Below, piece after piece: positions 32,946 to 38,940 of a stretch of DNA of 64,000 nt; the first letter of the stretch is position 1; each line of letters starts with the position of its first letter. This DNA is from Alphaproteobacteria bacterium MarineAlpha5_Bin9 (GTDB lineage: Bacteria; Pseudomonadota; Alphaproteobacteria; HIMB59; GCA-002718135). The notes under the pieces were generated by a model that was not told the origin of the DNA, did no database searches, and saw only the letters and a list, made by a program, of their open reading frames with translations. The stretch is taken from contig PTKV01000007.1 of assembly GCA_002937895.1 (NCBI GenBank), positions 9,440-73,439 of the forward strand, in the 5' to 3' direction. A program made the position numbers and the translations under genes.

Positions 32946-33677
32946 ATGAAATTAATAGAAAAATATAAATCCAATAATTTCGATAAAAGACAAAAAAATC
33001 TTAATTTGGAATATATAATTATACATTACACAGCTATGCATTCATGCCAAGAAGCATTAAAATTCCTTTGTAATGAAAAAAACAAAGTTAGCTCACATTA
33101 TTTAATATCAAAAAAAGGTCAAATTTATTATCTTGTAGATACGGAAAAAAGAGCTTGGCATGCTGGAGAATCTTATTGGAAAGGAGAAACTGATATTAAC
33201 TCATGCTCAATTGGGATAGAAATTGATAATTCAGGACATATGAATAATTTTGAGCCATACAATAATATTCAGATTAATTCACTACATAAACTATTATCTT
33301 TTTTAAAGAGTGAATTTAAAATTTTAGAGCAAAATATTCTTGGACATTCAGACATTGCTCCTTTTAGAAAACTAGATCCAGGGGAAAAATTCCCATGGGA
33401 TTTTTTATCAAAGTTTGGAATAGTATATATGCCTAAAAAAAATAAGAATATTTCCTTTAATGAAAATATATTAGAAAATATAGATTTTTTAGAAGATTCT
33501 ATAAAAATGCTTGATTTCATAGGGTATGATTTGAGAAATGTCGAGCCAAATTCAACCAAGTTTAAAATGTTAATAAAAGCTTATCAAATGCATTACGTTC
33601 AAAATAATGTTACAGGAAACCTAGATAATTTAACTTTTGAGATAATTAAAAATCAATTCAAAGATATGTTGACCTAA
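32946..33677 (+). CDS. N-acetylmuramoyl-L-alanine amidase (AmiD/AmpD-like)
   Basis: IIHYT, SSHYLI, RAWHAGES, SIGIE and GHSDIAPFRKLDPG motifs. Confidence 0.93.
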   Translation: MKLIEKYKSNNFDKRQKNLNLEYIIIHYTAMHSCQEALKFLCNEKNKVSSHYLISKKGQIYYLVDTEKRAWHAGESYWKGETDINSCSIGIEIDNSGHMNNFEPYNNIQINSLHKLLSFLKSEFKILEQNILGHSDIAPFRKLDPGEKFPWDFLSKFGIVYMPKKNKNISFNENILENIDFLEDSIKMLDFIGYDLRNVEPNSTKFKMLIKAYQMHYVQNNVTGNLDNLTFEIIKNQFKDMLT

Positions 33678-33697
33678 GCTTGATTTTTTAATAATTG
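33669..33697 (+). promoter_or_regulatory. Putative rnpB promoter
   Basis: TTGACC-17 bp-TAATTG, 7 nt before the P1 helix. Confidence 0.5.
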
Positions 33698-33704
33698 CAG
33701 AAAT

Positions 33705-34050
33705 AAGATGGTGCGATGATCGCTTGAGAAATCAAGAGGAAAGTCCGGGCTCCTCTGGAAAATGAAACCAGGTAATTCCTGGCAGGGGCAACCCTAGGGA
33801 AAGTGCAACAGAAAATATACCGCCTTAGTATCTAAGGTAAGGTTGAAATGGTTGAGGTAAGAGCTCACCGCATAATTGGTAACAATTATGGCTATGTAAA
33901 CCCTTTCAGGAGCAAGGCCAAATAGGAATAACATAAATTCCAGTGAAGTTATTCGGGTAGGCTGCTTGAAACAAATGGTGACATTTGTTCTAGATTAATG
34001 ATCATCAAAATTAGAGATAATTTTACAGAACCCGGCTTAAGCACCATCTT
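33705..34050 (+). ncRNA. rnpB: RNase P RNA (type A)
   Basis: GAGGAAAGTCCGGGCTC, GAAAGTGCAACAGAAA, GGTAAGAGC, GAGCAAGGCCAAATAG and ACAGAACCCGGCTTA conserved regions; terminal P1 helix AAGATGGTGC/GCACCATCTT. Confidence 0.97.
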
Positions 34051-34054
34051 TATA

Positions 34055-34070
34055 GAACACAATAGGAACA
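34055..34070 (+). promoter_or_regulatory. Putative LexA (SOS) box, alphaproteobacterial type
   Basis: GAACAcaatagGAACA = GAAC-N7-GAAC, intergenic between rnpB and mraZ. Confidence 0.6.
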
Positions 34071-34084
34071 AAATTTTATACTTT

Positions 34085-34119
34085 CCCATTGACGCCCATA
34101 AAAACCCATGATAACCCAT
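34085..34119. promoter_or_regulatory. Four direct CCCAT repeats (ATGGG on the minus strand) at an exact 10-bp period; putative MraZ operator
   Basis: CCCAT starts at 34085, 34095, 34105 and 34115; resembles the TGGGN MraZ boxes known upstream of mraZ. Confidence 0.75.
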
Positions 34120-34139
34120 ATATAAAGGTTTGGTTTAGG

Positions 34140-34607
34140 GTGAAATTATTTTTATCTACATATGTAAATAAAATAGACAGCAAGGGAAGAATCTCTCTAC
34201 CTTCATCATTTAGAAATATTCTTTCAAAAGAAAATAAAAAAGAAATTATATTATTCAAATCAATAAAATTTGCAGCAATAGATGGTTGTAGCTACGAAAG
34301 AATAAACACAATTTCTGAAAGAATTGACAATTTAGATATTTTTTCAGAAGATCAAGATGATTTTTCTACATCTATTTTTTCTGAAATAGTTCCTACTTCA
34401 TTAGATAAAGAAGGAAGATTCATAATTCCAAATTTTTTAAAAAAACATGCTAATTTAAAAAATGAAGCTGCATTTATAGGTCAAGGTAATTATTTTCAAA
34501 TATGGCATCCTAAGTCAGCTTTAGAAAAACAAAAAGCTTCAAGAGAAAGAATAAAAGCAAATAAAAAAACTCTAACTTCAATATTAATAAACAAAAGCAA
34601 TGACTAA
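34140..34607 (+). CDS. mraZ: Division/cell wall cluster transcriptional repressor MraZ
   Basis: FLSTYVNKIDSKGRISLP, LDKEGRFIIP and GQGNYFQIW motifs. GTG 34140 preferred; the track start at 34089 runs through the operator. Confidence 0.93.
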   Translation: MKLFLSTYVNKIDSKGRISLPSSFRNILSKENKKEIILFKSIKFAAIDGCSYERINTISERIDNLDIFSEDQDDFSTSIFSEIVPTSLDKEGRFIIPNFLKKHANLKNEAAFIGQGNYFQIWHPKSALEKQKASRERIKANKKTLTSILINKSND

Positions 34608-35559
34608 GAGGATTAATAAACATATTCCAGTGATGCTTAATAATATTAAACAATATATTCCTGATGATAGGAAAATTAATGTAATTGATGCAACTTTTGG
34701 TGGAGGAGGATATTCTAAATTTATTCTTAACAGATATGATGTAAACAAATTAATAGCTATTGATAGAGATGACTCTGTAAAAATTTATGCGAAAAAACTT
34801 GAAAAAAATTTTCCAAAAACATTTAAGTTATTAATTGGTCGTTTTAGCAAGATAGATGAATTAGTATTTCAATTTAAAGATAAAATATTTTTTGATCTTA
34901 TAATTTATGATTTAGGACTGTCTTCAAATCAATTAGAAGATCCAAAAAGAGGATTTTCATTTGATTATAGTGGTCCTCTTGATATGAACATGGGATTTTC
35001 AAATATATCTGCATTAAACGTAATTAATGATTTTTCAGAAAAAGAAATATCAGATATCTTATTTAATTATGGTCAGGAAAGATATGCAAAAAAAATTGCG
35101 AAAACTATTATAAAAAAAAGAAAAATCATTCCTATAAACACGACTAAACAACTTCAAGATATAATAAAATCTTGTGTTCCTTATTCAAAAAAAGTTAAAA
35201 TTAATCCTGCTACTAGAAGTTTCCAAGCAATTAGAATTTATGTTAATGATGAATTAAATGAATTAAAAAAATCTTTAGAAAAGGCTGAAAACTTATTATC
35301 AGATAAAGGTAGAATAATTGTAGTTTCTTTCCAAAGCTTAGAAGATAAGATTGTGAAAGATTATTTTAACCGCAAAAGCGGTAAAAAGTGGCGTTCCTCC
35401 CGCCATTACCCGGAGTTAGTAGAAAAAGGTCCAATTACCCTTAAAAACTTAACCAATAAACCTATAAGACCTGACATTGAGGAGATTAATTTAAATTCAA
35501 GATGTCGATCTGCTAAACTTCGGGTAGCTGAAAAATTAGTATTTGAAGAAAGATTATGA
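34600..35559 (+). CDS. rsmH: 16S rRNA m4C1402 methyltransferase
   Basis: HIPVM, DATFGGGG, DLGLSSNQL, FQAIRIYVNDEL and SAKLR motifs. Confidence 0.97.
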   Translation: MTKRINKHIPVMLNNIKQYIPDDRKINVIDATFGGGGYSKFILNRYDVNKLIAIDRDDSVKIYAKKLEKNFPKTFKLLIGRFSKIDELVFQFKDKIFFDLIIYDLGLSSNQLEDPKRGFSFDYSGPLDMNMGFSNISALNVINDFSEKEISDILFNYGQERYAKKIAKTIIKKRKIIPINTTKQLQDIIKSCVPYSKKVKINPATRSFQAIRIYVNDELNELKKSLEKAENLLSDKGRIIVVSFQSLEDKIVKDYFNRKSGKKWRSSRHYPELVEKGPITLKNLTNKPIRPDIEEINLNSRCRSAKLRVAEKLVFEERL

Positions 35560-35867
35560 AATTTTTAAAGATTAGTATTTTTTTAAATGTTTTTAATTTT
35601 ATAATTTTTTTTGCAATATTTTTTTTTGCAAATTTATCTGAAAAAATTCAGAAGGAAAATAATAGAATAAATTTAGACTTAAATTCTCTTAATAATATTT
35701 TAAAATTAAATAAATTAGAACTTTCTGCTCATTTAAACCCAAATTATTTGAAAAAACTAGAAAAAATTTATCTTAATAATACCTACACAGAAAGTTTGAA
35801 CATAGTTGACTTAAATAATGAAAGTTTTTTTTATATAGAAAAGGTTATTAGAGCAAAAACAAATTAA
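35556..35867 (+). CDS. ftsL: FtsL-like cell division protein
   Basis: Small TM plus coiled-coil protein with LSAHLNPNYL, between rsmH and ftsI. Assignment is mainly positional. Confidence 0.65.
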   Translation: MKFLKISIFLNVFNFIIFFAIFFFANLSEKIQKENNRINLDLNSLNNILKLNKLELSAHLNPNYLKKLEKIYLNNTYTESLNIVDLNNESFFYIEKVIRAKTN

Positions 35868-35882
35868 AATTTTAAATTTTAA

Positions 35883-37520
35883 ATGAAAAAAAATATAAAA
35901 ATTTTCGATAGTGATGCTCTTAAAAATATACATGGTAGAGTATTTTTATCTATAACAGTTTTTATTGTATTTTTTTTGTTAGTTTTCATTCAAATATTTA
36001 ATGTAATGATAATACAAAATTATTTTAGTATTGAAAAAAAGATATCAAACAATCATGAAAAAAATAAAATCGATAAAGGAAATATTTTTGATAGAAACGG
36101 AGTATTGTTAGCAAGTACAATTTTAAACTATTCTCTTTATGTAAAACCTGACAAGATTAAGGATATAAAAGGCTTGACAAAAAAATTATCTAAAATTTTA
36201 AATCTTCCTTCTCAAGATTTAAGTAAAAAACTATCATCAAAAAGAAGAATTAGAATTAAAAATAATATTTCTCCAAAACAGCATAAAGAAATAATCAATT
36301 TAGGAGAAATTGCATTAATAACTGAAGTTGAAAAAAAAAGAATTTACCCTCTTGGAGAAATAACTTCTCATATTGTTGGTTTTACAGATCTTGATGGAAA
36401 TGGATTAACTGGAATTGAGAAAGGTCTTGAAGATGAATTAAATTTAGGAAAAGATATTTATTTAAGTATCGATTTTCGAATTCAAAATGTGGTAAGAAAT
36501 GAATTAATTAAATCAATTGAAAAATTTTCAGCACAATCTGCTATTTCTTTGGTGATGGATATACAAACAGGTGAAATTATTTCTCTAGTAAATTATCCAG
36601 ATTTTGATCCAAATATTCATGACATAAAAATGTCTAAATATGAATTTAATTCTGCCACACAAGGTCTCTATGAAATGGGATCAACTTTTAAACCTCTAAC
36701 TATTGCCATGGGATTAGAAAAAAACATAATAAATGACAATATGAAATTTGATGTTTCAAAACCTATTAAAATTGGAAAATATCAAATCCAAGATTTTGAA
36801 CCTTATGAAGGTGAAATTTCTATAAAGGATGTTATTGTTATGTCTTCTAATATAGGAGCAGCAAAAATAGCCTTATTAATCGGTAAGGATAATCAAAGGA
36901 ATTTCTTTGATAAGTTAGGATTTTTTGACAAGATAGATTTAGAAATAAAAGAAACTATTAAGCCCAAGGAACCCATTAATTGGAAAAATACTGAGATTAT
37001 GACTATGGGTTACGGATATGGTATAGCTATTTCCCCTTTACATCTTTGTCAAGCTTATGCATCTATAATAAATGGTAATTCTATCAAACCAACATTAATA
37101 AAAAATAAAAAAACATCTTTAAAAAAATTTTATAAAAAAACTACGTCAAATAGAATTAAAAATTTATTAAGATCTGTAATAATTGAAAATGAAATAACTG
37201 GTAAATTGTCAAATATACCAGGATATGAATTGGCTGGCAAAACAGGAACTGCAGAATATTTTCCAGGATCAGATAAAAATAGAGCTTCGTTTATTGGGGT
37301 TTTTCCTATCTCTCAACCAAAATATTTAGTTTTTGCAATTGTAAATGATCCTAAGGGAATTAAGGAAACTTATTATTATAATACTGGAGGTTGGGTGGCT
37401 GCACCATTAGTAAAAAATATTATTGAAAATATTATTAAAATTTTTTCTTTACCACCAACTTCATCTGAAGATTTGTTGAAAGCAAAAAAACATTCTTTTA
37501 AACAAAATGAAATTATATAA
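35883..37520 (+). CDS. ftsI: Penicillin-binding protein 3
   Basis: N-terminal TM, IFDRNG, EMGSTFK (SxxK), SSN and GKTGTA motifs. Confidence 0.95.
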   Translation: MKKNIKIFDSDALKNIHGRVFLSITVFIVFFLLVFIQIFNVMIIQNYFSIEKKISNNHEKNKIDKGNIFDRNGVLLASTILNYSLYVKPDKIKDIKGLTKKLSKILNLPSQDLSKKLSSKRRIRIKNNISPKQHKEIINLGEIALITEVEKKRIYPLGEITSHIVGFTDLDGNGLTGIEKGLEDELNLGKDIYLSIDFRIQNVVRNELIKSIEKFSAQSAISLVMDIQTGEIISLVNYPDFDPNIHDIKMSKYEFNSATQGLYEMGSTFKPLTIAMGLEKNIINDNMKFDVSKPIKIGKYQIQDFEPYEGEISIKDVIVMSSNIGAAKIALLIGKDNQRNFFDKLGFFDKIDLEIKETIKPKEPINWKNTEIMTMGYGYGIAISPLHLCQAYASIINGNSIKPTLIKNKKTSLKKFYKKTTSNRIKNLLRSVIIENEITGKLSNIPGYELAGKTGTAEYFPGSDKNRASFIGVFPISQPKYLVFAIVNDPKGIKETYYYNTGGWVAAPLVKNIIENIIKIFSLPPTSSEDLLKAKKHSFKQNEII

Positions 37521-38940
37521 TTTTATCAAATTTATTGATCATAAGAAACAATTTATTTTTAATAAGAAACTTAAAATTAAATATCTAACCAAAAATTCAA
37601 AACTGGTAAGAAAAAATTCAATTTATATTGTTGATTACAAAAAAAAAATTAAAAAAAATTATCTACTTGAGGCAAAAAAAAATGGAGCAGTTTTTATCTT
37701 AACAAATAAAAATATCAGAAATTCTCCCATTCCTTATGTAAAAAGCAAAAATATTGATGAAGATATTAAAAAAATACTCTATAAGTTAAAGCCAAATAAA
37801 CCAAAAAACATAATTGGCATAACTGGAACAAACGGCAAAAGTTCTGTTTTATTATTTTTATCATCAATTTTAAGTAATTTAAAAATAGAAACAAGTTCAA
37901 TTGGCACTTTAGGATACTATAAAAATTTAAAATATATTTGTAATTCTAATTTAACTACACCAGAGTATGAAGAAATTTATCAATATTCTCACTCATTAAG
38001 ACCTAATAAAAATGTGTTCGTTTTTGAAGTTTCAAGTCACGCTATAGCTTTAAAAAGACTTAACAATATTTTATTAGATATAGCTGTATTAACAAATATT
38101 ACAAGAGATCATTTAGATTTTCACGGCAATTTTAAAAATTACCAAAAAACAAAATTTAATCTTTTTATTAAACATCTAAAATCAAATGGTTATGCAGTAC
38201 TAAATAATAAAATAAAAGACATAAATCTTTTAAAAAAAATAATTAAACAAAAAAAAATAAAAATAACAACTTATGGAAATCAAGCTAGTGATGTATACTG
38301 TTTTATAAAAAACAATATTACTAAATTAAAAATTAAATCTAAAATTTATAATATAAACTTTAAGCCATATGCAAATTTTGAACTTGATAATTTGAGTTGT
38401 GCGATTAGTTGTTGTATACAATTAGGAATTTCAGAATCTTCTATAATAAAATCTATTAATAAAATAAAAAGACCTCAAGGAAGAATGGAATTAATAAAAA
38501 AATTAAAAAATGGATCTAAAGTTTTTATTGATTTTGCTCATACGCCAGACGCTCTTGAAAACGTATTAAAATCTCAAATTTTAGAAACAAATGAGATAAG
38601 TCTAGTGTTTGGCTGTGGTGGAAATAGAGACTATGGCAAGAGAAGGAAAATGGGTTTAATTGCAAACAAATATGCAAAAAATATTTATGTAACAGATGAT
38701 AATCCAAGATATGAAAATCCTAATAAAATTAGAGAAGAGATACTTAAATACTGTAAAAGGGCTAAAAATATATCTAATAGAAAGGATGCTATATTATCAT
38801 CACTTAAAAATTTAAAATCTAAATCAATATTAATAATAGCTGGAAAGGGACATGAAAAATTTCAGATCATTAAAAATAAAAAAATTAAATTCGATGATGC
38901 TGAGGTAGTTAAAAATTGTATAAAAAAGCTAAAGTTATAA
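37507..38940 (+). CDS. murE: UDP-MurNAc-dipeptide--meso-DAP ligase
   Basis: ITGTNGKS, LTTP, EVSSH, DHLDFH, DFAHTPD, FGCGGNRD and DNPR (mDAP specificity) motifs. Confidence 0.96.
   Translation: MKLYNFIKFIDHKKQFIFNKKLKIKYLTKNSKLVRKNSIYIVDYKKKIKKNYLLEAKKNGAVFILTNKNIRNSPIPYVKSKNIDEDIKKILYKLKPNKPKNIIGITGTNGKSSVLLFLSSILSNLKIETSSIGTLGYYKNLKYICNSNLTTPEYEEIYQYSHSLRPNKNVFVFEVSSHAIALKRLNNILLDIAVLTNITRDHLDFHGNFKNYQKTKFNLFIKHLKSNGYAVLNNKIKDINLLKKIIKQKKIKITTYGNQASDVYCFIKNNITKLKIKSKIYNINFKPYANFELDNLSCAISCCIQLGISESSIIKSINKIKRPQGRMELIKKLKNGSKVFIDFAHTPDALENVLKSQILETNEISLVFGCGGNRDYGKRRKMGLIANKYAKNIYVTDDNPRYENPNKIREEILKYCKRAKNISNRKDAILSSLKNLKSKSILIIAGKGHEKFQIIKNKKIKFDDAEVVKNCIKKLKL

What the first reader, a model, noticed from the sequence alone, without database searches (positions are those of the whole stretch)
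34055..34082. Perfect alphaproteobacterial LexA-type box ahead of mraZ: possible SOS control of the dcw operon
Seen: aGAACAcaatagGAACAaaa in the short rnpB-mraZ spacer, 7 nt upstream of a TATACT -10-like hexamer (34077-34082), so it covers the corresponding -35 position. Established: alphaproteobacterial LexA binds GAAC-N7-GAAC/GTTC-N7-GTTC, and MraZ overproduction inhibits division in E. coli. A rough composition-based estimate makes a 10-base match unlikely in the few kb of intergenic DNA here. Inference: DNA damage would derepress a promoter driving mraZ/dcw, giving either an MraZ-mediated division checkpoint in place of SulA/SidA-type inhibitors or a post-damage boost of division genes. 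With the adjacent MraZ boxes this would form a two-repressor switch I do not know to be described.
Basis: partly seen in the sequence, partly recalled or inferred. Interest (0 to 1): 0.7.

Follow-up and report, generated by a model that had tools for sequence, protein, structure and literature searches.

The report
LexA site ahead of mraZ operon
A binding site of the type used by the DNA-damage repressor LexA sits directly in front of the cell-division and cell-wall operon of this small marine bacterium; all its family relatives and nearly half of alphaproteobacterial families keep it, so DNA damage is probably wired straight into division control there, a link I found described only for gut Firmicutes.

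Summary
GAACAcaatagGAACA lies at 34055-34070, just after rnpB and 14 nt before four MraZ-type CCCAT repeats and mraZ. In the window alone it is not significant (0.5 expected). Three wider comparisons make it convincing.

1. Own genome: there are 16 GAAC-N7-GAAC sites, and 5 are intergenic. These lie at lexA, recA, umuDC, nrdA and mraZ. An apparently cleavable LexA is encoded.
2. Own family: all 36 mraZ loci fetched, plus a pattern hit in the eighth genus, keep GAACA-N6-GAACA at this spot while its spacer and flanks vary. Some copies are identical to the lexA or recA operator.
3. Class Alphaproteobacteria: 48 of 110 families have an exact box within 400 nt upstream of mraZ (about 1 expected). 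It occurs in 32 of 58 families with full-length LexA and in 0 of 18 without (p = 1e-5).

Best reading: a LexA operator overlaps a damage-inducible promoter that fires through the MraZ-controlled promoter into mraZ-rsmH-ftsL-ftsI-mur. LexA binding, the start site and the physiological outcome are untested.

Precedent: mraZ as an SOS target in gut Firmicutes (Cornish 2014). I found nothing for Alphaproteobacteria. It is a new, probably ancient, member of a known regulon.

The parts
33704..34055 (+). rnpB (RNase P RNA, bacterial class A). It has the same orientation as mraZ, and no terminator is predicted after it.
   Evidence: Rfam RF00010, 306.2 bits, full length. No + strand terminator in 33600-34300. 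Metatranscriptome contigs cover 33700-34017 only.
34055..34070 (+). LexA operator of the alphaproteobacterial type, a direct repeat GAACA-N6-GAACA.
   Evidence: Sequence. The same motif lies at lexA, recA, umuDC and nrdA in the genome. All ten core bases are invariant in 33 distinct family sequences. In the class it co-occurs with LexA.
34077..34082 (+). TATACT, candidate -10 of a LexA-controlled distal promoter (inferred).
   Evidence: A -10-like hexamer starts 2-9 nt after the box in 28 of 30 distinct family sequences, against 14.4 +/- 2.6 in shuffles. The simple sigma-70 scan does not call it. No start-site data.
34085..34119 (+). Four CCCAT repeats with a 10-bp period (34085, 34095, 34105, 34115), read as the MraZ operator. 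TTGACG (34089-34094) is embedded as the likely -35 of the proximal mraZ promoter, and GATAAC (34110-34115) is its likely -10.
   Evidence: Sequence. CCCATTGACGCCCAT...CCCATGATAACCCA is conserved in the family, and TTGAC-bearing CCCAT repeats occur across the class. In a SAR11-like relative an RNA contig starts just downstream of the repeats.
34140..34607 (+). mraZ, starting at GTG 34140 rather than the longer TTG 34089 reading frame.
   Evidence: NF001477 MraZ, 165 bits against a cut-off of 162. Relatives start with ATG at the aligned position.
34600..35559 (+). rsmH (mraW).
   Evidence: TIGR00006, 299.9 bits.
35556..35867 (+). Small membrane protein in the ftsL position.
   Evidence: Reading frame with overlapping stop and start codons. 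No family match. Assigned by position only.
35883..37520 (+). ftsI-type penicillin-binding protein.
   Evidence: Matches to PBP2/FtsI families, all below their cut-offs; position in the cluster.
37507..38940 (+). murE-like ligase, continuing the division and cell-wall cluster.
   Evidence: Reading frame. Assigned from its sequence by eye and its position, not scanned.

Best explanation
The direct repeat GAACAcaatagGAACA (34055-34070) is an operator for the genome's own LexA repressor. It overlaps the -35 and spacer region of a weak distal promoter whose -10 is about TATACT (34077-82). That promoter lies immediately upstream of the proximal mraZ promoter, whose -35 (TTGACG) and -10 are buried in the four MraZ repeats. 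In undamaged cells LexA keeps the distal promoter shut, and the operon runs from the MraZ-autoregulated proximal promoter. After DNA damage, RecA-stimulated self-cleavage of LexA opens the distal promoter. Transcription then enters mraZ-rsmH-ftsL-ftsI-mur through the MraZ operator.

Shown here: the sequence, the native motif, the presence of LexA, conservation of the box, and its co-occurrence with LexA.
Inferred: LexA binding, the distal promoter, and the direction of the effect.

The net outcome is open. Extra MraZ could act as a brake on division, or extra division and wall enzymes could help recovery.
For: - LexA is encoded (TIGR00498, 176 bits). By eye it carries an Ala-Gly site (IAAGDP), a Ser motif (GLSM) and a Lys motif (ITLKT).
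- The motif is read from canonical SOS genes. GAACATATATAGAACA abuts the lexA start in this genome, and the GAACA-N6-GAAC core is kept there in the 42 family lexA loci examined, with a few spacer variants. GAACAAAAATAGAAC lies upstream of recA in all 27 family loci. It also lies upstream of umuDC.
- Of the 16 GAAC-N7-GAAC sites in the genome, the 5 intergenic ones are lexA, recA, umuDC, nrdA and mraZ.
- All 36 family mraZ loci fetched carry the box, in 33 distinct sequences; a pattern hit in G005 adds the eighth genus. All ten core bases are invariant. The N6 spacer, the flanks, the distance to rnpB (6-27 nt) and the distance to the MraZ repeats (10-21 nt) all vary.
- In sister genera the orthologous site is letter for letter the lexA operator (L010, L011, L013, L014) or the recA operator (L012).
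- In the class, an exact box lies within 400 nt upstream of mraZ in 48 of 110 families. Shuffles give 1.2, the first 400 nt of coding sequence give 2 of 110, and the region -800 to -400 gives 0 of 41.
- The box is present in 32 of 58 families with full-length LexA and in 0 of 18 without (Fisher p = 1.3e-5).
- A -10-like hexamer follows the box in 28 of 30 distinct family sequences, against 14.4 in shuffles. In GC-rich taxa a weakly conserved GCC-TAtT follows the box.
Against: - There are no binding, start-site or expression data for this organism. Metatranscriptome contigs stop at the rnpB 3' end.
- The consensus promoter scan finds no sigma-70 promoter in the spacer. In DNA that is 73% A+T, -10-like hexamers are common, and the shuffle test ignores the relatedness of the sequences.
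- This genome's box has an unusual spacer (C at position 6, G at position 11). A family-trained matrix ranks it 55th to 92nd genome-wide, so its affinity may be lower.
- The sister family in the same order keeps the GAAC-N7-GAAC motif at its umuD-like gene but has no box at mraZ. The link is therefore dispensable.
- In larger genomes the box lies about 135 nt upstream of the MraZ repeats, so the architecture is not uniform.
- The Caulobacter SOS regulon paper does not name mraZ. Genes with the tags I guessed for that region are not induced. Whether Caulobacter has the box was not checked.
Confidence: 0.6

Rival explanations
1. LexA binds here but acts as a roadblock or insulator. Sitting 6-27 nt after the heavily transcribed rnpB, it would stop read-through from the rnpB promoter into mraZ. 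Damage would release that read-through, with no separate distal promoter.
For: - rnpB and mraZ have the same orientation, with no predicted terminator between them.
- The box directly follows the rnpB 3' end in the whole family.
- In the class the box is commoner where rnpB lies upstream (30 of 47) than where it does not (18 of 63).
- One RNA contig in a SAR11-like relative spans the rnpB 3' end, the box and mraZ.
Against: - Eighteen families have the box with no rnpB detected upstream.
- The sister family has the same rnpB-mraZ junction with neither box nor terminator.
- Box orientation flips in 10 families.
- A -10-like element follows the box.
- A roadblock role for LexA has no precedent that I know of.
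Confidence: 0.12
2. LexA acts positively on the proximal mraZ promoter. Bound at about -60 to -70, it would help RNA polymerase, so that LexA cleavage after damage lowers transcription of the division operon and delays division without any inhibitor protein.
For: - In this family the box centre lies roughly 60-70 nt upstream of the expected proximal start site, a position typical of upstream activators.
- From my own knowledge, dual activity of LexA at recA was reported for Rhodobacter sphaeroides. I did not check this here.
Against: - The distance from the box to TTGACG varies between 10 and 21 nt with no helical phasing.
- In most other families the box is about 135 nt further upstream.
- The sister family runs the same promoter with no box.
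Confidence: 0.08
3. LexA binds, but there is little regulatory consequence in this genome. The site would be an inherited remnant of an ancestral alphaproteobacterial arrangement, squeezed against the mraZ promoter during genome streamlining.
For: - The arrangement is old and has been lost repeatedly: 26 of 58 LexA-bearing families lack it, as does the sister family.
- This genome's copy scores low with the family matrix.
Against: - All ten core bases are invariant across the eight genera, whose MraZ proteins are only 57-70% identical to this one, while neighbouring bases vary freely.
- Such small genomes keep very little non-functional spacer.
- The family's whole set of conserved boxes is only about six sites, and mraZ is one of them.
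Confidence: 0.1
4. The site is not a LexA site. It would be a chance match, part of rnpB 3' end formation, or the site of another direct-repeat-binding protein.
For: In the window alone one match is unremarkable. The box touches the last base of the Rfam rnpB match.
Against: - The same motif lies at lexA, recA and umuDC.
- The box is absent from all 18 LexA-less families.
- It is present upstream of mraZ in 18 families where no rnpB was detected.
- It is absent after rnpB in the sister family.
Confidence: 0.04

Closest known systems
Alphaproteobacterial LexA operator (GTTC-N7-GTTC / GAAC-N7-GAAC direct repeat) at recA, lexA, uvrA and the imuA-imuB-dnaE2 genes of Rhodobacter, Sinorhizobium and Caulobacter
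   Same: It has the same direct-repeat core and spacing (motif as stated in PMC3323433). The same extended form, GAACA-N6-GAACA, lies at this genome's own lexA, recA and umuDC.
   Different: The target is the first promoter region of the division and cell-wall cluster. I did not find that target named for this class in the papers I could read. The two key older papers (Erill 2004; da Rocha 2008) are not held.
LexA site upstream of an mraZ homologue in the human gut microbiome (Cornish, Erill et al. 2014, PMC3998124)
   Same: It links the same regulator to the same target, also found by comparative sequence analysis. There, binding was shown by gel shift with B. subtilis LexA.
   Different: The phylum differs (Firmicutes) and so does the motif (palindromic GAAC-N4-GTTC). 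That study did not analyse the architecture with MraZ repeats. Here the link spans nearly half of one whole class and tracks the presence of LexA.
MraZ autorepression at the first mra promoter of E. coli (Eraso et al. 2014) and B. subtilis (bioRxiv 10.1101/2022.02.09.479790)
   Same: Short repeats with a 10-bp period lie directly upstream of mraZ, the first gene of the cluster. The B. subtilis preprint's title calls MraZ a transcriptional inhibitor of cell division.
   Different: Here the repeats read CCCAT on the coding strand, number four, and contain the -35 hexamer TTGACG. A second repressor's operator sits 14 nt upstream.
SOS-induced division inhibitors (SulA of E. coli, SidA of Caulobacter, YneA, DivS, ChiZ)
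   Same: If extra MraZ blocks division, the logic would be the same: LexA cleavage leads to a halt in division.
   Different: Those are dedicated small proteins that act on FtsZ or the late divisome. Here the LexA target would be the division operon's own regulator and promoter. No SulA family member is found in this genome.
UpsM leader of the division cluster in Rhodobacteraceae (Weber et al. 2016, PMC5089854)
   Same: It shows that in an alphaproteobacterium mraZ can be driven solely from a promoter far upstream (268 nt). Many class members place the LexA box at a similar distance (-250 to -290).
   Different: In this window the whole rnpB-mraZ spacer is 84 nt, with no terminator and no room for a small RNA. 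Weber et al. do not mention LexA.

Membership tests
Alphaproteobacterial LexA operator (SOS box) | Direct repeat GAAC-N7-GAAC (or GTTC-N7-GTTC) | tested here: met
   GAACACAATAGGAAC at 34055-34069, with no mismatch.
Alphaproteobacterial LexA operator (SOS box) | A LexA repressor with self-cleavage residues is encoded in the same genome | tested here: met
   TIGR00498, 176 bits against a cut-off of 111, full length. The motifs AAG, GLSM and TLK were read by eye from the protein.
Alphaproteobacterial LexA operator (SOS box) | The same motif stands at the organism's own lexA and recA promoters | tested here: met
   lexA: GAACATATATAGAACA. recA: GAACAAAAATAGAAC. Both boxes are conserved in the family.
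Alphaproteobacterial LexA operator (SOS box) | Conserved at the orthologous promoter in relatives, more than the neighbouring bases | tested here: met
   36 of 36 family loci fetched, plus a pattern hit in G005 for the eighth genus. The core carries 2.0 bits at all ten positions, while the flanks mostly carry under 1.2 bits. 48 of 110 families in the class have it.
Alphaproteobacterial LexA operator (SOS box) | The site occurs only where the regulator occurs | tested here: met
   32 of 58 families with full-length LexA, 0 of 18 without; p = 1.3e-5.
Alphaproteobacterial LexA operator (SOS box) | Overlaps or abuts a promoter so that binding blocks RNA polymerase | tested here: inconclusive
   A -10-like hexamer follows the box, but the consensus scan calls no promoter and there are no start-site data.
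Alphaproteobacterial LexA operator (SOS box) | Bound by LexA; the gene is induced by DNA damage in a way that depends on RecA and LexA | not testable with these tools
   The organism is uncultured, and the RNA runs hold only rnpB for this stretch.
MraZ operator | Three or more short direct repeats with a 10-bp period immediately upstream of mraZ | tested here: met
   Four CCCAT repeats at 34085, 34095, 34105 and 34115, conserved in the family, order and class.
MraZ operator | Bound by MraZ | not testable with these tools
   Inferred from the position and from the MraZ family match of the gene.
UpsM-type extended leader of the division cluster | A 5' leader of about 270 nt with an intrinsic terminator that releases a small RNA | tested here: not met
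   Only 84 nt lie between rnpB and mraZ, and no terminator is predicted.
SulA/SidA-type SOS division inhibitor gene behind the box | A small inhibitor gene between the box and the next operon | tested here: not met
   There is no room in this window. No conserved small reading frame lies between the box and the MraZ repeats in 41 class loci. No SulA family match in the genome.

The most novel reading that the evidence does not exclude
In Alphaproteobacteria the SOS response may be hard-wired, from an early ancestor, into the master promoter region of the division and cell-wall cluster. In streamlined marine lineages that keep only about half a dozen LexA sites and no known division inhibitor, MraZ itself would be the damage-induced brake on division: LexA cleavage, then a burst of MraZ, then shut-down of the proximal promoter and of other MraZ targets. 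That would give the long-enigmatic MraZ a physiological role. Together with the Firmicutes report and this scan's actinobacterial notes, it would point to repeated or ancient coupling of LexA to mraZ across phyla.
Probability: 0.25. Interest if true: 0.8.

Novelty: new member of a known kind. Interest (0 to 1): 0.6.

Why it matters
How bacteria without SulA-type inhibitors hold division while they repair DNA is known for only a few model species. What MraZ is for has also stayed unclear since it was shown to be a repressor.

A LexA operator fixed in front of mraZ gives a concrete, testable link between the two questions. It is universal in one family of abundant, tiny-genome marine bacteria. 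It is present in almost half of alphaproteobacterial families. It is absent wherever LexA is absent.

Many cultured alphaproteobacteria should carry the box. The link can therefore be tested with ordinary genetics: lexA deletion, mitomycin C, start-site mapping and cell-length measurement.

For surface-ocean bacteria exposed to daily UV, it suggests that sunlight damage feeds directly into the timing of division.

Tried and rejected
- **Window-only statistics.** One hit against 0.5 expected. This is not evidence by itself.
- **Weight matrix.** A matrix trained on the family's lexA, recA, umuD and nrdA sites is overfitted to their A/T spacers. In a 27% G+C genome the cores carry few bits, and this genome's mraZ site ranks only 55th to 92nd. 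I report it as a caveat and do not use it as a test.
- **Expression of this organism.** Metatranscriptome contigs from the source sample cover only rnpB.
- **Expression in a relative.** In a SAR11-like relative, contigs hint at a proximal start just after the MraZ repeats, and one transcript spans the box. Contigs carry no strand or 5'-end information. A second relative, L218, had only weak RNA holders and I did not pursue it.
- **A hidden small gene or RNA as the true LexA target.** No conserved reading frame lies between the box and the MraZ repeats in 41 class loci. In this family there is no room for one.
- **Terminator after rnpB, or a consensus promoter in the spacer.** None was called.
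- **Sister family as a LexA-loss control.** Rejected. That family has a divergent LexA-like gene and keeps the motif at its umuD-like gene. Its lack of the mraZ box is a lineage difference, not loss of the system.
- **Literature.** Erill et al. 2004 did not turn up in the library search, and da Rocha et al. 2008 is not held. I cannot exclude that a table there lists mraZ. The Caulobacter and Dinoroseobacter SOS papers I could read do not mention it.
- **SulA.** The Pfam model is absent from the genome, but it only rings for E. coli among the controls, so this says little.

Full report
**What is there.** The window comes from a 1.23 Mb genome in 22 contigs with 27% G+C. Its nearest named relatives are uncultured marine Alphaproteobacteria, for example MarineAlpha5_Bin3 and the single-cell genomes AG-447-I04 and AG-404-D18. 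Rfam places a full-length RNase P RNA gene at 33704-34055 on the + strand.

Then, in order:
- GAACAcaatagGAACA at 34055-34070.
- TATACT at 34077-34082.
- Four CCCAT repeats with a 10-bp period at 34085-34119. They contain TTGACG (34089-34094) and GATAAC (34110-34115).
- mraZ from GTG 34140.

mraZ matches NF001477 above its cut-off. It is followed by rsmH, a small gene in the ftsL position, an ftsI-type gene and a murE-like gene.

**Chance.** In the window alone the 8-base core is expected 0.5 times, and 43 of 100 shuffles have a hit. The whole genome does. There are 16 GAAC-N7-GAAC sites. Eleven lie inside long reading frames. The five intergenic ones lie upstream of:
- recA;
- lexA, where the box abuts the start codon;
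- a umuD-umuC pair;
- the divergent spacer between nrdA and an OmpR-type response regulator;
- mraZ.

**The regulator and its native motif.** A full-length LexA is encoded (176 bits against a cut-off of 111). By eye it has the Ala-Gly, Ser and Lys motifs needed for self-cleavage. Across the family:
- lexA is preceded by a GAAC-N7-GAAC box in the 42 loci examined, GAACATATATAGAAC in most of them.
- recA is preceded by GAACAAAAATAGAAC, plus a second imperfect copy, in all 27 loci.
- An exact-pattern scan of four family genomes finds 7-10 sites each. These again include lexA, recA, umuD and mraZ.
- The nrdA site and an intragenic site in mnmE are also conserved.

The family's set of conserved boxes is thus about six sites, and mraZ is one of them.

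**Conservation at mraZ.** All 36 family mraZ loci that I fetched carry GAACA-N6-GAACA between the rnpB 3' end and the CCCAT repeats. They give 33 distinct sequences. MraZ identity to this genome is 57-70%. A pattern hit in G005 adds the eighth genus. The evidence for selection on the box itself is:
- The two fifth-position A's were not part of the search, yet they are 33 of 33.
- The N6 spacer varies: tatata, aaaata, tacaaa, caatag, tttaga and others.
- The flanks vary.
- The distance to rnpB varies from 6 to 27 nt.
- The distance to the first CCCAT varies from 10 to 21 nt.
- In four sister sequences the site is identical to the lexA operator, and in one to the recA operator.

This pattern is what phylogenetic footprinting expects of a protein-binding direct repeat.

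The sister family of the same order has the same rnpB-mraZ junction with three CCCAT repeats but no box (27 loci). It has a divergent LexA-like gene, 31-39% identical. It keeps GAAC-N7-GAAC at its umuD-like gene. The link is therefore specific to some lineages, not universal.

**Breadth in the class.** I took one genome per family, giving 110 alphaproteobacterial families in which I could place the mraZ start with a profile.
- 48 families have an exact GAAC-N7-GAAC (41) or GTTC-N7-GTTC (10) within 400 nt upstream of mraZ.
- Controls: 1.2 in shuffles, 2 of 110 in the first 400 nt of coding sequence, and 0 of 41 in the region -800 to -400.
- Unconditioned positions again follow the LexA-box pattern: A at position 5 in 38 of 41, and A after the second core in 36 of 41.
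- The box usually lies 250-290 nt before mraZ, a median of 135 nt upstream of TTGAC-bearing CCCAT repeats.
- rnpB lies upstream in 47 of the 110 loci, so rnpB, LexA box, MraZ repeats and mraZ form an old arrangement.
- The box also occurs in 18 loci where no rnpB was detected.

Among 80 of these families the box is present in 32 of 58 with full-length LexA and in 0 of 18 without (Fisher p = 1.3e-5). This co-occurrence is the strongest computational argument that the site is read by LexA.

**How it probably works.** The CCCAT repeats enclose a good -35 (TTGACG) and a -10-like GATAAC. MraZ would therefore shut its own proximal promoter by occupying it. In a SAR11-like relative that has the same layout, one metatranscriptome contig begins just after the repeats and two more begin about 100 nt further on, inside mraZ. 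That suggests the proximal promoter is used under ordinary conditions. One contig runs from the rnpB 3' end through the box into mraZ. This is weak evidence, since contigs carry no strand or 5'-end information.

The LexA box lies too far upstream to occlude the proximal promoter: its centre is at about -60 to -70 in this family and about -190 elsewhere. A -10-like hexamer follows the box within 2-9 nt in 28 of 30 distinct family sequences, against 14.4 +/- 2.6 in shuffles. In GC-rich taxa a weakly conserved GCC-TAtT follows it.

The best reading is therefore a LexA-repressed distal promoter that fires through the MraZ operator into the operon.

I cannot tell which outcome follows. Extra MraZ may brake division, or extra FtsL, FtsI and Mur enzymes may help recovery. 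Work in E. coli and B. subtilis names MraZ a repressor and an inhibitor of division, which makes the brake plausible.

The rivals are a LexA roadblock against rnpB read-through, LexA as an upstream activator of the proximal promoter, and a bound but inconsequential remnant. They are listed above with their tests.

**What is known.** The alphaproteobacterial GTTC-N7-GTTC motif is established. Cornish et al. 2014 proposed mraZ (COG2001) as an SOS gene in gut Firmicutes and showed binding by B. subtilis LexA. That is the only published precedent I found.

Weber et al. 2016 showed that in R. sphaeroides mraZ is transcribed only from a promoter 268 nt upstream, through the UpsM leader. They do not mention LexA.

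The SOS papers for Caulobacter and Dinoroseobacter that I could read do not name mraZ. Two key older papers are not held.

Earlier notes of this scan report LexA-type boxes at mraZ in uncultured actinobacteria and in one other alphaproteobacterial window. I treated these as leads. My class-wide count was made independently of them.

**Verdict.** This is a new and apparently ancient member of the alphaproteobacterial LexA regulon, not a new kind of element. Binding, the start site and the physiological direction remain to be shown.

Noticed in passing
L251:845-859, L253:869-883, L259:840-854, L261:869-883 (own genome contig 12, 88857-88871): An exact GAACA-N6-GAAC box lies inside the mnmE coding region at the same place in this genome, in two other genera of the family and in the sister family. 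Its spacer differs between them. It could be an intragenic LexA site, perhaps serving the downstream mnmG. It could also simply reflect conserved codons.
   Followed up: partly
L252:805, L254:814, L257:830, L258:788 (own genome contig 17, 52287-52301): A conserved LexA-type box lies in the divergent spacer between nrdA (ribonucleotide reductase alpha subunit) and an OmpR-type response regulator with its kinase. It occurs in at least four genera of the family. Either gene, or both, may belong to the SOS set.
   Followed up: partly
L039-L064, L067; L099-L104: The sister family of the same order keeps the rnpB-mraZ junction with three CCCAT repeats and no TTGAC. It has no LexA box there or at recA. 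Its LexA-like gene is only 31-39% identical and has no box directly upstream. The motif survives at its umuD-like gene. Its SOS network appears to be rewired.
   Followed up: partly
window 33704-34140; L141-L250: rnpB lies directly upstream of mraZ, in the same orientation, in this order and in at least 47 of 110 alphaproteobacterial families. No terminator is predicted between them here. I have not seen this synteny remarked on.
   Followed up: partly
window 34085-34119: The MraZ-type repeats read CCCAT on the coding strand and enclose the -35 hexamer TTGACG between repeats 1 and 2. The block CCCATTGAC(G/A)CCCAT is conserved from this family to distant GC-rich Alphaproteobacteria.
   Followed up: partly
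window 34089-34140: The longest reading frame for mraZ starts at TTG 34089, inside the operator. Relatives start with ATG at the position aligned with GTG 34140, which is therefore the likely true start.
   Followed up: yes
L137 and L111-L140 (recA upstream): recA carries the exact box and then, 10 nt further on, a second imperfect copy, GAACAAAACGTGTAC. The second copy is conserved across the family with minor variants. This suggests tandem LexA sites at recA, whereas mraZ has only one.
   Followed up: no
L070, L074-L098 (lexA upstream, largest genus of the family): A conserved TTGTTCTTGTTTTGATC lies about 10 nt upstream of the lexA operator in the largest genus. A similar TTGTTCTTGTTT lies before recA in one genome of the sister family (L134). 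Its meaning is unknown.
   Followed up: no
L189:751-1243: In a complete 1.2 Mb, 32% G+C relative that looks like SAR11, the LexA box also lies between rnpB and mraZ (798-812). One metatranscriptome contig bridges the rnpB 3' end, the box and mraZ. Some read-through or distal transcription may therefore occur in the sea.
   Followed up: partly
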